Assembly: GCF_006345805.1 (NCBI RefSeq)
Contig: NC_043021.1
Location: 6,944,001-7,008,000, forward strand
DNA length: 64,000 bases
Direction: 5' to 3'
Origin: Octopus sinensis
Lineage: Eukaryota
The position numbers were made by a program. Shown here piece after piece: positions 7,985 to 37,876 of this stretch; the stretch's first letter is position 1; the number at the start of each line of letters is the position of its first letter.

Positions 7985-8779
7985 TAATCCAAACAAGAAA
8001 GCACAAAAAACGCGAGGACGTGGAACAAATATAGTATTATTGGACACTCAGGAAAGAAGGAGGGTTTAACGTTTCGAGCGGAGCTCTTCGTCGGAAACAT
8101 AGGAGAAGGAAAGATCCAGAGAAGGGAAGACAGAGGAAAAAAAATCGCCAATGGTACACACACGGTCACATTTTGAATGATCGGAAGGAAATGGGTGAAG
8201 AAAAGTTCTTTCAAAGACAGGAGAGTGGTTCTTATATATATAAATATATATAACAGGCTTCTTTCAGTTTCTATCTACAAAATCCATTTGGTCAGCCTGA
8301 GATCATAGTAGAAGACACTTGCGCCCAAAGTGCCAAGCTGCGGAACTGAACCCAGAACCATGTGGTTGGGAAGCAAGCTTCTTACAACACAGCCACACCT
8401 GGATATTTCTTTAAGGAAAGTATATAATTATGAAATATCAAAAATAATGTTTTTTTCTTTCCAAGCACCAGTGGGGCATACATTTTTCTGGGAAGTTATA
8501 AATGGGGCCTGCGGGGTAAATAGGTTGGGAAAAGCAGTTCTAGAATGTTGTTACCTGTTTATCGTCAGAAGCTAAACAGTGCCGTACAATGTCTCGTTCC
8601 ATGGCAGATCTATCCTCTTGCAGGTGATGCTCAAAGTAATGAGAAAGACGAAGGCGGCCGGCTTTATTGATAATCAACAAAAATTTCAGCATTTTGGAGA
8701 TTCTGCAAAAAAAAAAGGGGAAAGGCAAACAAAAATTAACAAAAAATTCCATTGCAGTTACAACCAAGAACAAACTGAT

Positions 8780-8818
<39 letters not shown>

Positions 8819-11800
8819 AATGGGTGCAGGCATGGCTGTGTGGTAAGAAGCTTGCTTCCCAAACACATGGTTCCAGGTTCAGTCCTGGAACTATGTTCAG
8901 TCCTGCATGGCACTTTGGGTAAGTGTCTTCTAGTATATATGTATATGTCCATGTGTGTCTTTCTGTTTGTGTTTCCCCCACCACCACCACCACCACCACT
9001 TGACTAGTGTTGGTGTGTTTATATCCCTGTAACTTAGCAGTTCAGCAAAAGAGACTAATAGAACAAATACCAGGTATAAAAAAAAAAGTACTGTGGTCGA
9101 TTCATTTGACAAAAAATTCTTCAGGGCAGACCCCAGCATGGCCACAGTCTAATGACAGAAACAAGCAAAAGATAAAAGATAACATAAGAGAAGAATTATG
9201 AGGGAGATTTGAAAAGTTCCTGGCTTTAAGGGTATCACAAAAGATCTGGTTGGAGGCCCAACCTTTTGAGTTCTTTACAGGGTTTAGAAAAATTAAAAGG
9301 ATCACTGCAACAAATGTATGAACCTGAGAGGGGAACCGGTTGAATAAAACCTCCTGTGTTTTCTTTTACCCAAAACCAGGAACTTTTCAGCACCTCCTTG
9401 TATTGATAAGATTATAAATTCCATTAAGGTTATAACCTTACAACAATGCCCCACAGCTGTTAAAATGAGTAACATGTCAGATTTTTAAGTAGATTATATA
9501 TTTTCCAAATAATTAACCTTATCATCTCAGTGAATGTTAACAATATTTGCAACTATTTTACGTTTTACATTATGGTTATTATAATTATTTATAGTTGGCC
9601 TTTCAATGCTCCTTGCAGTGAATATGTTAACACTTAAGTAACAATTATATAATTGGTCTTGAGAGTGTACACATACACAAACACTCACACACACACATTA
9701 AAGATATATATATATTTATATATATATTTTACCAATGACCTTGTTCTTATTGCTGAATCACTTACTAGAACTAGAGAGAAGAAATTTTAAGTATGGGAAC
9801 ACAGACTGGAATCAAAGGGCCTTAGAGCTAATTTAGTAAAGACCAAAGTCTTGAAAGGTAGGAAAACAGGTAGATCACAGATCCCTTCAGGGAGATGGCT
9901 CTGCTCAATGTGTAGATAAGGTGTTGGGAGAAACTCCATACAGAGTACTTAGTGCGAGCTATGGACACATAAGTGGTGCAGCAATATCACTGGAAGACTA
10001 ACAGAGAAAGTAATCTTTACATGTGGCAGATGTGCAGGTTCATTAAACACTAGGAATCATCATCATCAGAATCTTTGTTTAATGTCAGCTTTCCATACTG
10101 GCATGGGTTTCACGGTTTGACTGAGGACTGGTGAGCCAGAAGGCTTCACCAGGCTCAATCTGATCTGGCAAAGTTTCTACAGCTGCATGTTCTTCTTAAT
10201 GCCAACCACTCCAAGAGTGTAGTGGGTGCTTTTACATGCCACCGGCATGAGGGCCAGCAGGCAGTTCTGGCAATGACGACACTCAAAAGGTGTTTTTTAC
10301 GTGCTACCAGTACGGGAGCCAGTCCAGCGGTACTGGCAACAACCACGCTCGAATGTTGTTTTTCACGTGCCACCAGCACATACAAACATAACATACATAT
10401 ATGAGGAGGTGCTGAAAAGTTCCTGGCTTTAAGGATATCACGAAAGGCCTGATTGGATGCCCAACCCTCCAAGTTCTTTTACAGGGCTTAGAAAAACTGA
10501 AAGACCACTGAAATAAGTGTGTGAATCAGAGAGAGAAATATGTTGAATAAAATCATAATTAAATGATCCTCCTGTATTTTCTTTTACCTTGTATACATAT
10601 ATATATATATATACACATATATCATCATCATCATCATCATCGTTTAACATCCATTCTCCATGCTAGCATGGGTTGGATGGTTCGATCGGGGATCTGGGAA
10701 GCCAGAAGGCTGCACCAGGCTCCGGTCTTATCTGGCAATGTTTCTACAGCTGGATGCCCTTCCTAACGCCAACCACTCCGTGAGTGTAGTGGGTGCTTTT
10801 TACGTGCCACCTGCACTGGAGCCAGGCGAGACTGGCATCGGCCACGGTCGGATTGGTGCATTTTACGTGCCACCTGCAAGGAAGCCAGTCGAGGCGGCAC
10901 TGGCTTCGGCCACGATTCGGATGGTGCTTTTTACATGCCACCAACACGGAAGCCAGTCGAGGCGGCGCTGGCATCGGCCACAATTTGGATAGTGCTTTTT
11001 ACGTACCACCAGTCCAGGGGTCCTGGCATCTGCCAGGTGCCAGTCATAGGATTGGTTCAATTTCGATTCCGATTTTATATATATATATATATATATATTA
11101 ATAGTAATGGTATGACAACATAAGAATGAATGAGACCTGGATATTATGTAAATAGAGGAATATATCTGTAATATAATATAATTTATTGAAAATATAGAGA
11201 GCTTCACAGTATTTGTAGCCTAAGGGACCAATAAAAACTTAATCTAGCTCTAAGAATAAGTGTCAGGTCTAGTGTGACTCAGGGGTGTATATTCCAGGTG
11301 TGTTGGGTGTGCAGTGCACACCCATCAAAAATGGCAAATTCATTATAGATATTAACCTTATTCATTAATTCAATCACAAATCTCAATGGAAAACTTATTG
11401 AAGAGAAAACTTATCTCTCATCTTCATAGCACCAATGAATCCAAAGCTAAGAAACAATCATTAAACAAGCTAATGGGGGAAGGAGAATTTGTAGACATAC
11501 TTAACCTACTAAAAAAGAAACCAAATTTCTTTCCCTAACAAGTCTACGATTCTTTATGCCTGAAGGAAAAAAGATTGTCACTGCAGCTGGAACACCTTTC
11601 ACCATAAGCCTGCTGGATAGAGGCTGAGCTAGGTAAAACAACAACCACCAAACAACCCCGAAGAATTCTTCAGGGCCCCTCACATTTATGTTGTTTAAAT
11701 TTCCTTCACCACATTTCTGCTATTGTTGTATTATTGCTACACATTGTGTACAAAGTTGCACCATTACAGCATATAGGCACTGTCATTGTGTACTCTCTAC

Positions 11801-35075: not shown

Positions 35076-35119
<44 letters not shown>

Positions 35120-37876
35120 TCTGTCGTCTTATAAAGAAAAGGATACGTTGAAAAATACAATTTCCTGACACACAAAAGGACGGAATGGTTTTGCTGGAAC
35201 GCTTCTGATCATAGATTTACTCAATCAGAGTAGACCTGGGGCTAAGCAACTAAACGAATGCGCGTACGCACGCACACAACACAAACACATATGTATGAGT
35301 GAGAGAGGGCGAAATAAACATACGCACAGCAGACACACAGAGGAAAAGATATCGAGAGGGAGAAAAACCATGGTCACAGTCACACACGCTATATAAACAA
35401 ACACGATCAAGACACACATACATACATACATTCACGTGAAAGAGAGAGAGTAGAAAGGGGGAGACAACTACACAGTTACAGGCACACGTTATATAGAGCA
35501 AGTTCATACACACACAATCACATCAAGACACACAGTGATACACGTAATACATGTGTACACACAGACAGAGAGGGGGAGACAACTACAGTCATAAGTACAC
35601 ATCGTTATATATATATATATATATATATATAACGACGGAAATACATGCACACTGACATAATTAAACACACACACGCACACACACTGATAGAAAGGGGGAG
35701 ACAACCACAGTCATAAGTACACATGGTTATATATAACGACGGAAATACATGCACACTGACATAATTAAAGACACGCACACACTGATAGAAAGGGGGAGAC
35801 AACCACAGTCAAGGCACAACCTCTGTAACAACGAAAACGCGCACACATGTATTAAGATAGGAACGCACTCATACGCAGACAGGAAGAGAGAAAGGTAGAG
35901 AGTATAAGGGAGAAGAGAGAGAGAGGGAAACATGCTCGATCGTACAGCTTTATAACGTACGTACACTATTTACAGTAAGAGAACTATAATAACTAAAATA
36001 ACAACAACAGACGAAATACTCCGTTTAGTCACACACACAAATACACAGCGAGAGAGTGACGTCATTGCAAAGTAAAGCCGCCGAGTAAGTAGCAGGAAGG
36101 AAAGGAAAGGAAAGCCAGTGTAATGGCGGCGGTCATGGTAAGATGATTGAAGACGGCCCCGGATCACAACACGGAGGAGGCAGTAGTAGTAGTATTGGTG
36201 GTGGTGGTGGTGGCCAGGTAGTAGGAGGTGGTAGTATCAGCAGCAGCAGCAGCAGCAACAACAACAACAACGGCGCTAGTCCAGTCATCTTTTCCGCCGT
36301 CAACAACAGCAATAGTGTTGGTAGTAGTAGTAGTTGTGGTGGTTGTAGTGGTGTTGTTGGTGGACTTGGTGCTGCTGGAATGGTTACCAAACAACAAGCC
36401 GATGAATCGAGCCAAAGGCCTCAGTATTCTATGCCGGGAATTTTACATTTCTTACAAACGGAATGGGCAAGATTCGAGATGGAACGGTCGCAATGGGAGG
36501 TGGAGAGAGCAGAACTTCAAGTAAGTCTTTGGTCGATTTCAACATTTACCTCTCATTCTGTTGTTGTTCTTGTTATTATTATTAGTATTATTAGTCTTAT
36601 TAGTATTACCATTAGTATAAGATACTGACGATAGACATTATCTTTCATCGTCGTCTCACACTCATCACTCAGCAACACTGTTTCGCCCTCTGCTATATTC
36701 TACATCTATCATAAGTACAACCATCCACCACACACACCACTACTGCTTCGTTACTTCACACTCACAGCAACTATTACACCCATTCAAACAAGCACCAAAT
36801 CTCCGCTCTACACCGCACCAACACTGCCATTACAGTCACTTAATAAAATACTACAGCACCTTCACTATATACTACATCACAACTTCCACTACCCTCCTCC
36901 ACTATGCTACATCACAACTTCCACTACCCTTCCTCTCGGCCACACCGGGAGGCCTTCCACTCGGTTCATCGACCTGCTAGAAATAAAAGCTAAATAACGC
37001 CTTAAAAAAAAAGATAAAAGCGCGCATTACGTATAATAAAGTGTAATGGTCATGCATGGAATGGTTTTGATCGCAGCTCTGCTCGATAAAGCTGAACTGG
37101 AGTTGAACAACTTGGCCACTAGTCCACAGCATCGTTCCATTCCACTCCATTCAAACATCACATCATATCATCAACTTCTACTACATCATATCCACCATCA
37201 CACACAGTTACAGCACCTCTGCATTCACTCAGACATCATACACTAGCATTTCATATTACCCCTAAACACTTGGATGGCCATGACTTGATCCGTTACCAAT
37301 TTTTTAACCCCCATCCTTGGGTGTACATTTAACGGTATTCAGAGGGGGTCTTTTTTTTTATAAGCAAGTATCCGGGGGGGGTCAGGTCTCAATTCAAACG
37401 GTCATAGGTGCTGTGCTGCCCTTCATTCTGTCCATCTCCATGACTGGACAAGAAAAACCACACAGTACTTCTTTAACAGAGGGACGGACCATGAATCACC
37501 ATTCCGTGGTCACGAGAAATAGAAGCCAAATCTCCTTCACATCATGCCCTACTGTCTTTAAAAAAAAGATAAATGATATGTAAAACATTGGATAATGTAG
37601 TTTGATTGAATAAAGGGACGGGATGGTCAGAGCAGGAACGCTTTGCTGACCGAGGGCCGATTAATAACTCTACTACTTTACACCACCAACTGGATTTTCC
37701 TGTCGGTTATTATATTATCTTTATATAGTATTAATTATTATTATATATTAAATTGAAGCTTTTACGATAAAGCTTGTTTGAACGAAACACCAGGCTTCAC
37801 TCCAACCTCTACTCCAACACCAGTTCTCACTCAAAGCTCTGTCATTATTTTTCATTTCTCTTTCCCAAACACACAC

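What the first reader, a model, noticed from the sequence alone, without database searches (positions are those of the whole stretch)
8555..36520. Head-to-head AP4S1-striatin pair, the same arrangement as human AP4S1/STRN3
Seen: an AP4S1-like exon on the minus strand and striatin exon 1 on the plus strand, with no other recognisable coding exon between them. Established (from memory): STRN3 and AP4S1 are divergently transcribed neighbours at human 14q12. Inference: an ancient bilaterian microsynteny kept despite the heavy rearrangement of coleoid genomes, possibly because of a shared promoter; here the two ATGs are about 27.5 kb apart.
Basis: partly seen in the sequence, partly recalled or inferred. 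Interest (0 to 1): 0.72.

Follow-up and report, generated by a model that had tools for sequence, protein, structure and literature searches.

The report
Octopus AP4S1–striatin head-to-head gene pair
The window holds the starts of two octopus genes, AP4S1 and striatin, pointing away from each other just like their human counterparts; this is a real but fairly ordinary example of an ancient neighbour pair that has stayed together.

Summary
Observation confirmed. Window 8692..8555 (minus) is the first coding exon (46 codons) of the AP-4 sigma-1 orthologue. Window 36143..36520 (plus) is coding exon 1 (126 codons) of the single octopus striatin gene. The start codons are 27,451 bp apart, and each gene has only this one coding exon in the window. 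The sigma exon scores best against AP-4 sigma-1, not AP-1/2/3 sigma or zeta-COP. The striatin exon is identical to Octopus sinensis striatin records.

No protein family, tRNA or Rfam RNA was found in the spacer. About 42% of it is repeated elsewhere in the window.

Papers give the human order COCH-STRN3-AP4S1-HECTD1. The human head-to-head orientation is recalled only. Intermediate taxa could not be surveyed.

New here:
- The AP4S1 ATG exon opens with a splice acceptor, so its promoter lies further into the spacer.
- A CpG-decay map shows gene-body-like depletion from AP4S1 out to about 32 kb.
- That depletion is broken by an undecayed island at 12-16 kb.
- An undecayed zone at about 33-54 kb surrounds the striatin start.

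Whether the two genes share a promoter stays open. Verdict: a new member of a known kind (conserved 5'-5' neighbour pairs), of modest interest.

The parts
8555..8692 (-). First coding exon of the AP-4 sigma-1 (AP4S1) orthologue, 46 codons, M1 to Q46; phase-0 GT donor at 8554-8553
   Evidence: 100% identical to residues 1-46 of P0003 'AP-4 complex subunit sigma-1 [Octopus bimaculoides]'. PDB: AP-4 sigma-1 32.8 bits against AP-1 sigma-1A 16.2 bits. Pfam Clat_adaptor_s 21.4 bits, E 2.6e-4, just under the 22.5 cut-off because only 44 of 142 profile positions are present.
8693..8731 (-). 10 nt of 5'UTR (8702-8693), the AG acceptor (8704-8703) and its pyrimidine tract. These imply at least one non-coding exon further upstream, at higher window coordinates
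   Evidence: Read directly...gcctttcccctttttttttttgcag|aatctccaaaATG. A (CA)n microsatellite and a SINE-like copy (8825-8909, family D15) follow immediately. That this is a used acceptor is an inference; no transcript data were available.
12001..16000 (.). 'Island A': a largely non-repeated block that is not CpG-depleted. It is candidate 1 for the AP4S1 promoter or first exon, or an internal regulatory island
   Evidence: CpG o/e in non-repeated sequence is 0.90, against 0.21 (8693-12000) and 0.35 (16001-32000); p=1.9e-7 and 7.7e-11. It holds the largest block in the spacer not repeated elsewhere in the window, 11102-15380. A GCGGAAGTG (ETS-like) word lies near 14275-14283 on the minus strand, and a GTAAGT lies at 14091 on the minus strand. 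That GTAAGT sits inside a palindromic element, so it carries little weight.
16001..32000 (.). Middle of the spacer: repeat-laden, with CpG-depleted non-repeated sequence, like a methylated gene body
   Evidence: Non-repeated sequence has CpG o/e 0.35 and TpG+CpA o/e 1.43. This is indistinguishable from the AP4S1 intron at 1-8554 (0.37, p=0.71) and far below the striatin-proximal zone (0.79, p=9e-15). All 9 of 9 non-repeated segments of 400 bp or more between 16.9 and 30.5 kb have o/e <=0.57. Caveat: repeats here are less depleted (0.70) than repeats in the two flanking gene bodies (0.31, 0.30).
32001..36142 (.). Upstream flank of striatin, not CpG-depleted: the striatin promoter region and candidate 2 for a shared (bidirectional) AP4S1 start
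   Evidence: CpG o/e is 0.75 in non-repeated sequence and 0.90 overall. The only TGACGTCA (CRE palindrome) in the 64 kb lies at 36057-36064, 79 nt before the striatin ATG. One match is not itself unusual, since 42 of 100 shuffles had at least one; only its position is suggestive.
36143..36520 (+). Coding part of striatin exon 1, 126 codons: a low-complexity Gly/Ser/Asn tract followed by the start of the conserved striatin N-terminal domain; GTAAGT donor at 36521
   Evidence: Pfam PF08232 E 3e-13. PDB Striatin-3 7k36_B 41.7 bits. 126 of 126 identical to Octopus sinensis records P0005, P0007, P0008 and P0011. Two 2-residue indels plus one substitution against O. bimaculoides.
36521..64000 (+). 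Striatin intron 1, more than 27.4 kb; exon 2 lies beyond the window. It is not CpG-depleted up to about 53.6 kb and strongly depleted from 54 kb on
   Evidence: No later striatin exon was found by tblastn; the best other hit has E 3.7. CpG o/e is 0.79 at 36521-54000 and 0.19 at 54001-64000 in non-repeated sequence.
1..8554 (-). AP4S1 intron after the first coding exon, more than 8.5 kb; the remaining coding exons lie beyond the window's left edge
   Evidence: tblastn finds no match to P0003 residues 47-143 better than E 1.0. CpG o/e is 0.37.

Best explanation
The window (an Octopus of the vulgaris/sinensis group, judged by protein identity) contains the 5' ends of two real, divergently oriented genes. 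One is the AP-4 adaptor sigma subunit orthologue (minus strand). The other is the single invertebrate striatin gene, the pre-duplication counterpart of human STRN, STRN3 and STRN4 (plus strand). No detectable protein-coding gene lies in the 27.45 kb between their start codons. The same two genes are neighbours in human (STRN3-AP4S1), so this is most simply an ancestral bilaterian neighbour pair that survived the coleoid genome reshuffling. That would make it one more case of the known class of conserved 5'-5' pairs. How it is held together (inferred): the AP4S1 start-codon exon begins at a splice acceptor, so AP4S1 transcription starts somewhere in the spacer. The spacer's non-repeated DNA shows the CpG decay typical of methylated octopus gene bodies, running from the AP4S1 exon out to about 32 kb. 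The undecayed zone begins only about 3-4 kb from the striatin start. I therefore think it most likely that AP4S1 has a non-coding first exon beside the striatin promoter (about 33-36 kb). On that reading most of the 'intergenic' 27 kb is AP4S1's first intron, the two genes share one promoter region, and a break between them would cut AP4S1 off from its promoter. The undecayed island at 12-16 kb would then be an internal alternative promoter or enhancer. Shown: exon identities, orthology, orientation, distance, absence of recognisable coding sequence, and the CpG domains. Inferred: ancestry of the linkage, use of the acceptor, methylation history, and the position of the AP4S1 start.
For: Orthology: the exon peptide scores 32.8 bits against AP-4 sigma-1 and 16.2 against the best other sigma. 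The public record identical to it over the exon, P0003, scores 144 bits against AP-4 sigma-1, 102.5 against AP-1 sigma, 98.9 against AP-2 sigma, 79.7 against AP-3 sigma and 28.3 against zeta-COP. Striatin. Spacer: 0 of 150 ORFs with a Pfam hit, 0 tRNAs, 0 Rfam matches. Human neighbour order: PMC2685086 and PMC4970234 passages. Second octopus: the O. bimaculoides AP4S1 and striatin records both list a longest contig of 35,489,836 bp. Acceptor before the ATG. CpG domains. Methylome background: PMC9476566 passages say octopus 5mC sits on gene bodies of constitutively expressed genes, not on intergenic DNA or transposons, and that one gene class lacks it at the TSS. Class background: Irimia et al. 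2012 passages give 595 non-paralogous conserved pairs, 54.8% in 5'-5' orientation against 26.7% of controls, and the shortest spacers when orientation is conserved. Schmidbaur et al. 2022 passages give 275 metazoan microsyntenies retained in a squid.
Against: No transcript evidence was available, so the AP4S1 first exon was not located. Island A (12-16 kb) is an equally natural place for the AP4S1 promoter: an undecayed island about 2 kb upstream of where depletion begins, with an ETS-like word. Repeats in the 16-32 kb domain are much less CpG-depleted (0.70) than repeats in the two undoubted gene bodies (0.31, 0.30), so the domain may not be methylated today. A strand-skew test for transcription direction was uninformative, because AP4S1's own intron shows no skew. 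Only two lineages support the ancestry claim. The CAMP criterion of four lineages is not met with the data in hand. The human head-to-head orientation is recalled, not read.
Confidence: 0.5

Rival explanations
1. The ancestral pair is retained, but with two separate promoters about 22 kb apart. AP4S1 starts in island A (12-16 kb), with a short non-coding exon and a 5'UTR intron of about 5 kb. The rest of the spacer is ordinary intergenic DNA. Linkage persists by inertia or through long-range elements, not through a bidirectional promoter.
For: Island A is the only block that is both not repeated elsewhere in the window and not CpG-depleted between the two genes away from the striatin start: o/e 0.90, with sharp edges at about 12 and 16 kb. 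Depletion resumes about 2 kb downstream of it toward the AP4S1 exon, as expected for a gene class unmethylated at the TSS. It carries an ETS-like GCGGAAGTG word and a GTAAGT on the correct strand. A 5-kb intron is less demanding than a 27-kb one.
Against: This reading leaves the gene-body-like CpG decay of 16-32 kb unexplained (9 of 9 non-repeated segments at o/e <=0.57; TpG+CpA o/e 1.43). The GTAAGT lies inside a 234-nt palindromic element. The motif words are single occurrences recalled from memory, not statistical evidence.
Confidence: 0.3
2. An unannotated transcription unit, either a non-coding RNA or a gene with only short exons, occupies about 16-32 kb. The two genes would then not be immediate neighbours in the strict sense.
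For: The CpG-depleted, TpG/CpA-enriched domain at 16-32 kb is bounded on both sides by undecayed zones, which is the pattern of a methylated gene body between two unmethylated starts.
Against: 0 of 150 ORFs of 60 aa or more have a Pfam hit, and there are no Rfam or tRNA matches. About 42% of the spacer is repeated elsewhere in the window. Repeats in the domain are only mildly depleted (0.70).
Confidence: 0.12
3. The adjacency arose independently in cephalopods and vertebrates, by chance or convergence, and says nothing about the bilaterian ancestor.
For: Only two lineages are documented here. Coleoid genomes created many new microsyntenies; the passages seen discuss novel cephalopod microsyntenies and a large-scale microsyntenic gain.
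Against: The chance that a named gene's neighbour is the orthologue of its human neighbour is of the order of 1 in 10^4 genes, and less with matching orientation. Irimia et al. report a false-discovery rate below 0.0002 per pair, though under their four-lineage rule. Conserved pairs make up a few percent of neighbour pairs.
Confidence: 0.05

Closest known systems
Human STRN3-AP4S1 neighbours at 14q12
   Same: The same two gene families are immediate neighbours. Order ...COCH, STRN3, MIRN624, AP4S1, HECTD1... in PMC2685086 (passage) and in a deletion gene list in PMC4970234 (passage). The camel SNP row 'STRN3, U6, AP4S1' is in PMC11409489 (passage). Divergent orientation is my recollection only.
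   Different: In human the partner is one of three striatin paralogues, whereas octopus has the single pre-duplication gene. As I recall it, the human transcription starts are within about 1 kb of each other. In the window the start codons are 27,451 bp apart and the AP4S1 start is unmapped. No human sequence was used or compared.
Conserved ancestral microsyntenic pairs (CAMPs) in 5'-5' orientation, e.g. HSPE1-HSPD1 (Irimia et al. 2012, PMC3514665; passages only)
   Same: Unrelated genes, head-to-head, linked in distant animal lineages. The proposed cause is shared cis-regulation or a bidirectional promoter.
   Different: The CAMP definition needs linkage in at least 4 of 11 major lineages, and only 2 lineages are documented here. 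AP4S1 and STRN3 do not occur in its main text.
Metazoan microsyntenies retained in coleoid cephalopods (Schmidbaur et al. 2022, PMC9023564; passages only)
   Same: Ancient linkages that survived the coleoid genome reorganisation. 275 such blocks are reported in Euprymna, and they are co-expressed more than random sets.
   Different: In the passages I saw, those are blocks shared with at least six distant species, and some analyses require 3 or more genes. A two-gene pair may fall outside that catalogue. Its supplementary lists were not seen.

Membership tests
AP-4 sigma subunit (AP4S1 orthologues) | Small-chain adaptin (sigma/longin-like) domain, Pfam PF01217 | tested here: met
   The exon peptide matches profile positions 1-44 of 142, E 2.6e-4, 21.4 bits, just under the 22.5-bit cut-off because only a third of the domain is in the window. 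The public record P0003, identical over the exon, carries PF01217.
AP-4 sigma subunit (AP4S1 orthologues) | Closer to AP-4 sigma than to AP-1, AP-2 or AP-3 sigma or zeta-COP | tested here: met
   Exon alone: 32.8 bits (AP-4 sigma-1, 9u9i_S) against 16.2 (AP-1 sigma-1A) and 13.7 (AP-2 sigma). Whole public record P0003: 144 against 102.5, 98.9, 79.7 and 28.3 bits. This is a score ranking against solved structures, not a tree.
AP-4 sigma subunit (AP4S1 orthologues) | Falls inside the AP-4 sigma clade in a sigma-subunit phylogeny | not tested
   The third homologue search returned only 4 cephalopod proteins. I did not build a tree from unnamed library hits.
AP-4 sigma subunit (AP4S1 orthologues) | Complete gene of about 144 codons | tested here: inconclusive
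   Only codons 1-46 lie in the window. Residues 47-143 of P0003 have no match better than E 1.0, so the rest must lie beyond the left edge.
Striatin family | Striatin N-terminal domain, Pfam PF08232 | tested here: met
   50.9 bits against a 29.4 cut-off, E 3e-13, profile positions 2-31 of 151, ending at the exon border. PDB Striatin-3 41.7 bits.
Striatin family | C-terminal WD40 repeats in the same protein | tested here: inconclusive
   These are not in the window, since no later exon was found. The O. sinensis records identical over exon 1 (P0005, P0008) list PF00400 among their precomputed domains.
Conserved ancestral microsyntenic pair (CAMP, Irimia et al. 2012) | Linked with 4 or fewer intervening genes in at least 4 major metazoan lineages | tested here: inconclusive
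   Two lineages are documented: octopods (this window; the same 35.49-Mb contig in O. bimaculoides) and mammals. No eukaryotic genome collection was available for others. Definition.
Conserved ancestral microsyntenic pair (CAMP, Irimia et al. 2012) | The two genes are not paralogues | tested here: met
   They belong to different Pfam families, PF01217 and PF08232.
Bidirectional-promoter gene pair | Opposite strands, 5' ends facing each other | tested here: met
   The AP4S1 exon is on the minus strand at 8.6 kb and striatin exon 1 is on the plus strand at 36.1 kb.
Bidirectional-promoter gene pair | Transcription start sites less than 1 kb apart (definition as quoted and in abstracts listed) | not testable with these tools
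   Neither start site is known. The start codons are 27,451 bp apart. The acceptor before the AP4S1 ATG and the CpG map allow, but do not show, an AP4S1 first exon near 33-36 kb.

The most novel reading that the evidence does not exclude
AP4S1 and striatin form a single regulatory unit older than 550 million years. On this reading the octopus AP4S1 gene keeps a non-coding first exon at the striatin promoter, 27 kb from its own start codon. The same 5'UTR-intron design would hold in vertebrates, and the pair is kept because a trafficking adaptor subunit (AP-4) and the STRIPAK scaffold (striatin) must be expressed together. The linkage would then be found in most animals that still have AP-4.
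Probability: 0.15. Interest if true: 0.5.

Novelty: new member of a known kind. Interest (0 to 1): 0.3.

Why it matters
If the linkage is ancestral, it adds one clean, two-gene example of a head-to-head pair that survived the unusually heavy rearrangement of coleoid genomes. It could also test a specific idea about how such pairs are held together. That idea is a start-codon exon tethered by a long 5'UTR intron to a promoter shared with the neighbour. This would explain how a pair can stay functionally bidirectional while the coding parts drift tens of kilobases apart in a repeat-inflated genome. Both genes matter for neuronal trafficking and signalling in vertebrates. The AP4S1 link to spastic paraplegia is cited in PMC11409489's reference list, so co-regulation would be of some interest. 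The phenomenon itself is well described, and both genes are already annotated in public octopus records.

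Tried and rejected
1. Further exons. tblastn of P0003 and of four O. bimaculoides and one O. sinensis striatin records found no second exon of either gene in the window.
2. A weak tblastn match of the AP4S1 C-terminus at 14797..14711 (33% identity, E 1.0). I rejected it as chance: the 64-aa ORF has no Pfam hit and nothing around it looks coding.
3. Pfam scan outside the spacer. I scanned 147 of 193 ORFs (those of 66 aa or more). It gave two below-cut-off hits: Cmr2_hel_dom2 at 7857-8066, and DUF1368 at 51758-52303 inside a 39-bp tandem repeat. 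I rejected both as low-complexity artefacts.
4. Strand-skew test for transcription direction in the spacer. The control failed, because the AP4S1 intron shows no skew, so the test is uninformative.
5. Donor-site scan on the minus strand. The one full AGGTAAGT (32157) lies in a TACC-type low-complexity run. The GTAAGT at 14091 lies in a palindromic element. Neither is usable.
6. Promoter-word scan with consensus words recalled from memory. Counts were single, and the CRE count is not significant on its own: 1 found, 0.53 expected, and 42 of 100 shuffles had at least one.
7. Linkage survey through contig lengths in the protein tables. The third homologue search returned only 4 proteins, all cephalopod or unnamed, so no cross-phylum comparison was possible.
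9. Supplementary tables of Irimia et al. 2012 were closed.
10. Literature on the pair:
 - AP4S1+STRN3: 11 papers, all mammalian gene lists.
 - AP4S1+bidirectional: 14 papers, none about the promoter.
 - microsynten+striatin: 2 irrelevant papers.
 - 'AP-4 complex subunit sigma'+striatin: 0 papers.
 - miR-624+STRN3: 1 paper, saying only that the miRNA is in a STRN3 intron.
 - Two broader searches were swamped by generic papers.
Each gene has only one coding exon in the window, and these were searched separately (P0001, P0002). For whole-protein comparison I used the public record P0003 as a search returned it.
12. Not used: structure prediction, complex prediction, the representative-library search and the protein atlas. 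None would bear on gene order, and I did not want to build on unnamed hits that might be human.

Full report
WHAT IS THERE

On the minus strand an ATG at 8692-8690 opens a 46-codon exon that ends at 8555 before a GT donor. Ten bases upstream of the ATG sits a long pyrimidine tract and a CAG acceptor (AG at 8704-8703). Beyond that come a (CA)n microsatellite and a SINE-like copy.

On the plus strand an ATG at 36143 opens a 126-codon exon that ends at 36520 before GTAAGT. The finding's coordinates are exactly the two exon 3' ends. The start codons are 27,451 bp apart. The window has no N.

IDENTITY OF THE TWO EXONS

I searched each exon on its own. I made no joined model, and none was possible, since each gene has only one coding exon in the window.

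The 46-residue peptide:
- It matches Pfam Clat_adaptor_s over profile positions 1-44 of 142 (E 2.6e-4, 21.4 bits against a 22.5 cut-off).
- Among solved structures it scores 32.8 bits on AP-4 sigma-1, 16.2 on AP-1 sigma-1A and 13.7 on AP-2 sigma.
- It is 100% identical to residues 1-46 of the public record 'AP-4 complex subunit sigma-1 [Octopus bimaculoides]' (P0003, 143 aa).
- That record scores 144 bits on AP-4 sigma-1, 102.5 on AP-1 sigma, 98.9 on AP-2 sigma, 79.7 on AP-3 sigma and 28.3 on zeta-COP.
- A cuttlefish record (P0126, named AP4S1) is 72% identical over the exon.

This rests on score ranking, not a tree.

The 126-residue peptide:
- It ends in the start of the striatin N-terminal domain (Pfam PF08232, 50.9 bits against 29.4).
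- It matches Striatin-3 of the STRIPAK structure 7k36.
- A search with residues 80-126 found 163 proteins at E<=0.001 among 164 candidates. Among the 120 listed, the named records are striatins and the rest unnamed or hypothetical proteins carrying the striatin domain; they come from molluscs and other invertebrates.
- The whole exon is 126 of 126 identical to four Octopus sinensis isoforms. It differs from O. bimaculoides by two 2-residue indels and one substitution in the low-complexity tract.

The window is therefore most likely from the O. vulgaris/sinensis group.

EXTENT OF THE GENES IN THE WINDOW

No further AP4S1 exon is present; the best other tblastn hit has E 1.0. No further striatin exon is present; the best other hit has E 3.7. 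So 1-8554 is part of an AP4S1 intron longer than 8.5 kb, and 36521-64000 is part of striatin intron 1, longer than 27.4 kb.

THE SPACER (8693-36142)

- Of 155 stop-to-stop ORFs of 60 aa or more that overlap it, I scanned 150 against Pfam and none hit at E<=0.01. The five I left out are the two exon ORFs and three ORFs overlapping them.
- There are no tRNAs and no Rfam matches at gathering score.
- A self-comparison shows 42% of the spacer is repeated elsewhere in the window, the same as the flanks at 43% and 41%.
- The repeats are tRNA-derived SINE-like copies, several other dispersed families and many microsatellites.

The second refutation condition (an intervening gene) is not met at this depth. 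A non-coding or short-exon gene cannot be excluded.

A CpG-DECAY MAP

CpG observed/expected falls into sharp domains. In sequence not repeated within the window:

| Region | CpG o/e |
|---|---|
| 1-8554 | 0.37 |
| 8693-12000 | 0.21 |
| 12001-16000 ('island A') | 0.90 |
| 16001-32000 | 0.35 (TpG+CpA o/e 1.43) |
| 32001-36142 | 0.75 |
| 36521-54000 | 0.79 |
| 54001-64000 | 0.19 |

- The middle domain does not differ from the AP4S1 intron (p=0.71).
- It differs strongly from island A (p=7.7e-11) and from the striatin-proximal zone (p=9e-15).
- All 9 of 9 non-repeated segments of 400 bp or more between 16.9 and 30.5 kb have o/e <=0.57.
- All 12 of 12 such segments between 35.8 and 53.6 kb have o/e >=0.59.

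Passages of the octopus methylome paper PMC9476566 state three things. 5-methylcytosine sits on the bodies of constitutively expressed genes. It is scarce on intergenic DNA and transposons. One large gene class is unmethylated at the start site.

Read in that light, both flanks of the window are methylated gene bodies, the striatin start sits in a broad unmethylated zone, and most of the spacer looks like gene body as well.

Caveat: repeats in 16-32 kb are only mildly depleted (0.70), against 0.31 and 0.30 in the two flanking gene bodies. Either they are young, or the domain is not methylated now.

WHERE DOES AP4S1 START?

The acceptor in front of the ATG implies an upstream non-coding exon. 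Two zones qualify.

(a) About 33-36 kb, beside the striatin promoter.
- This makes the spacer AP4S1's first intron and explains the gene-body-like decay of 16-32 kb.
- The only TGACGTCA in the window lies at 36057-36064, 79 nt before the striatin ATG. One occurrence is not significant in itself, since 42 of 100 shuffles had at least one.

(b) Island A at 12-16 kb.
- It has an ETS-like word and a GTAAGT on the right strand.
- That GTAAGT lies inside a 234-nt palindromic element.

A strand-skew test could not decide, because the positive control failed. I put (a), possibly with (b) as a second promoter, at about 0.5. I put (b) alone at about 0.3 and an independent transcript in 16-32 kb at about 0.12.

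COMPARISON WITH WHAT IS KNOWN

- Human gene order at 14q12 is given as COCH, STRN3, MIRN624, AP4S1, HECTD1 in a passage of PMC2685086, and in the same order in a table of PMC4970234.
- A camel SNP row lists 'STRN3, U6, AP4S1' (PMC11409489).
- mir-624 is said to lie in a STRN3 intron (PMC4792531).
- I remember that the human pair is transcribed divergently, but I could not find this in any searchable text.
- In O. bimaculoides the AP4S1 and striatin records share a longest-contig length of 35,489,836 bp, which is consistent with linkage in a second octopus.

Irimia et al. 2012 (passages) define conserved ancestral microsyntenic pairs as unrelated genes linked in at least 4 of 11 lineages. They count 595 of them. 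They show these pairs are enriched for 5'-5' orientation (54.8% against 26.7%) and have short spacers. Schmidbaur et al. 2022 (passages) report 275 metazoan microsyntenies retained in a squid.

The present pair fits this kind in design. With two lineages in hand it does not yet meet the four-lineage definition.

No main text in the library discusses the pair:
- AP4S1+STRN3: 11 papers, all mammalian gene lists.
- microsynten+striatin: 2 irrelevant papers.
- 'AP-4 complex subunit sigma'+striatin: 0 papers.

WHAT STAYED UNCHECKED

- The survey of intermediate taxa, which is the third refutation condition. No eukaryotic genome collection was available. The third homologue search reached only cephalopods.
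- Transcript starts.
- A formal sigma-subunit phylogeny.

VERDICT

The orthology claims hold. The match to the human neighbour pair is supported for order and recalled for orientation. Common ancestry of the linkage is very likely on prior odds but is documented in only two lineages. The shared-promoter idea is open, with sequence hints on both sides. This is a new member of a well-described kind and is modestly interesting. The useful addition is the CpG-decay evidence that most of the 27 kb 'intergenic' DNA behaves like gene body, which makes the shared-promoter hypothesis directly testable with a single transcript-start experiment or a look at the public annotation.

Noticed in passing
window 13917-14150: A 234-nt near-perfect foldback: 51-nt outer arms 82% complementary and 18-nt inner arms 100% complementary. 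Its loop holds about four telomere-like TTAGGG/TTAGGT units (3 matches to TTAGGGTTAGGG at 1 mismatch, against 0.19 expected). Folded as DNA it gives -74.9 kcal/mol, z = -12.95. It occurs once in the window and sits in the CpG-rich island A. It may be a MITE or foldback element..
   Followed up: partly
window 36123-36146: A 7-codon upstream ORF (MAAVMVR*) whose TGA stop overlaps the striatin start codon (ATGA). It begins with ATGGCGGC, a YY1-like core as I recall it. It matters only if striatin transcription starts upstream of 36123, which is unknown..
   Followed up: partly
window about 53600-54000: CpG o/e drops abruptly inside striatin intron 1, from 0.79 (36521-54000) to 0.19 (54001-64000) in non-repeated sequence. 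This is as if gene-body methylation begins only about 17.5 kb downstream of the start codon..
   Followed up: partly
window 49734-51303 (also 48975-49362, 32202-32633, 27143-27485): Very long (TA)n microsatellites. The largest has about 800 copies over 1.57 kb and pulls GC down to 0.07-0.15 in striatin intron 1..
   Followed up: no
window 51793-52283: A 39-bp minisatellite, 12.5 copies, 96% matches. Its 182-aa open frame gave a spurious sub-threshold Pfam DUF1368 hit..
   Followed up: no
window 8825-8909, 16235-16424, 17480-17669, 55829-55913, 58846-58930, 63079-63268, and inverted copies at 2814-3169: A tRNA-derived SINE-like family (GGCTGTGTGGTAAG...GGTTCAGTCCC) on both strands. One copy lies about 130 bp upstream of the AP4S1 start-codon exon. 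Copies inside the CpG-depleted gene bodies have lost their CpGs to TpG/CpA, as seen by eye in the printed copies. (families D13, D15, D18; pairs I2-I8).
   Followed up: partly
window 23385-23937; related copies at 44718-44945, 47929-48156, 59415-59642, 30531-30653: A 184-bp unit repeated three times in tandem (94% matches). It is related to dispersed single copies elsewhere in the window, so it is a second interspersed family that also forms short arrays. (D9, D12, D20).
   Followed up: no
window 10792-11010, 15406-15546, 26047-26261 (related: 5422-5612, 62687-62892): Short arrays of a 62-68-bp CpG-rich unit (GGTGCTTTTTACGTGCCACC...) in both orientations. They are apparently internal repeats of another dispersed element. 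(D14, D17; I1, I3, I7).
   Followed up: no
window 36143-36400: The first ~85 codons of striatin are a Gly/Ser/Asn low-complexity tract encoded by trinucleotide runs. It differs by two 2-residue indels between the O. sinensis-type sequence here and O. bimaculoides, and it is entirely different in Argonauta (P0014)..
   Followed up: partly
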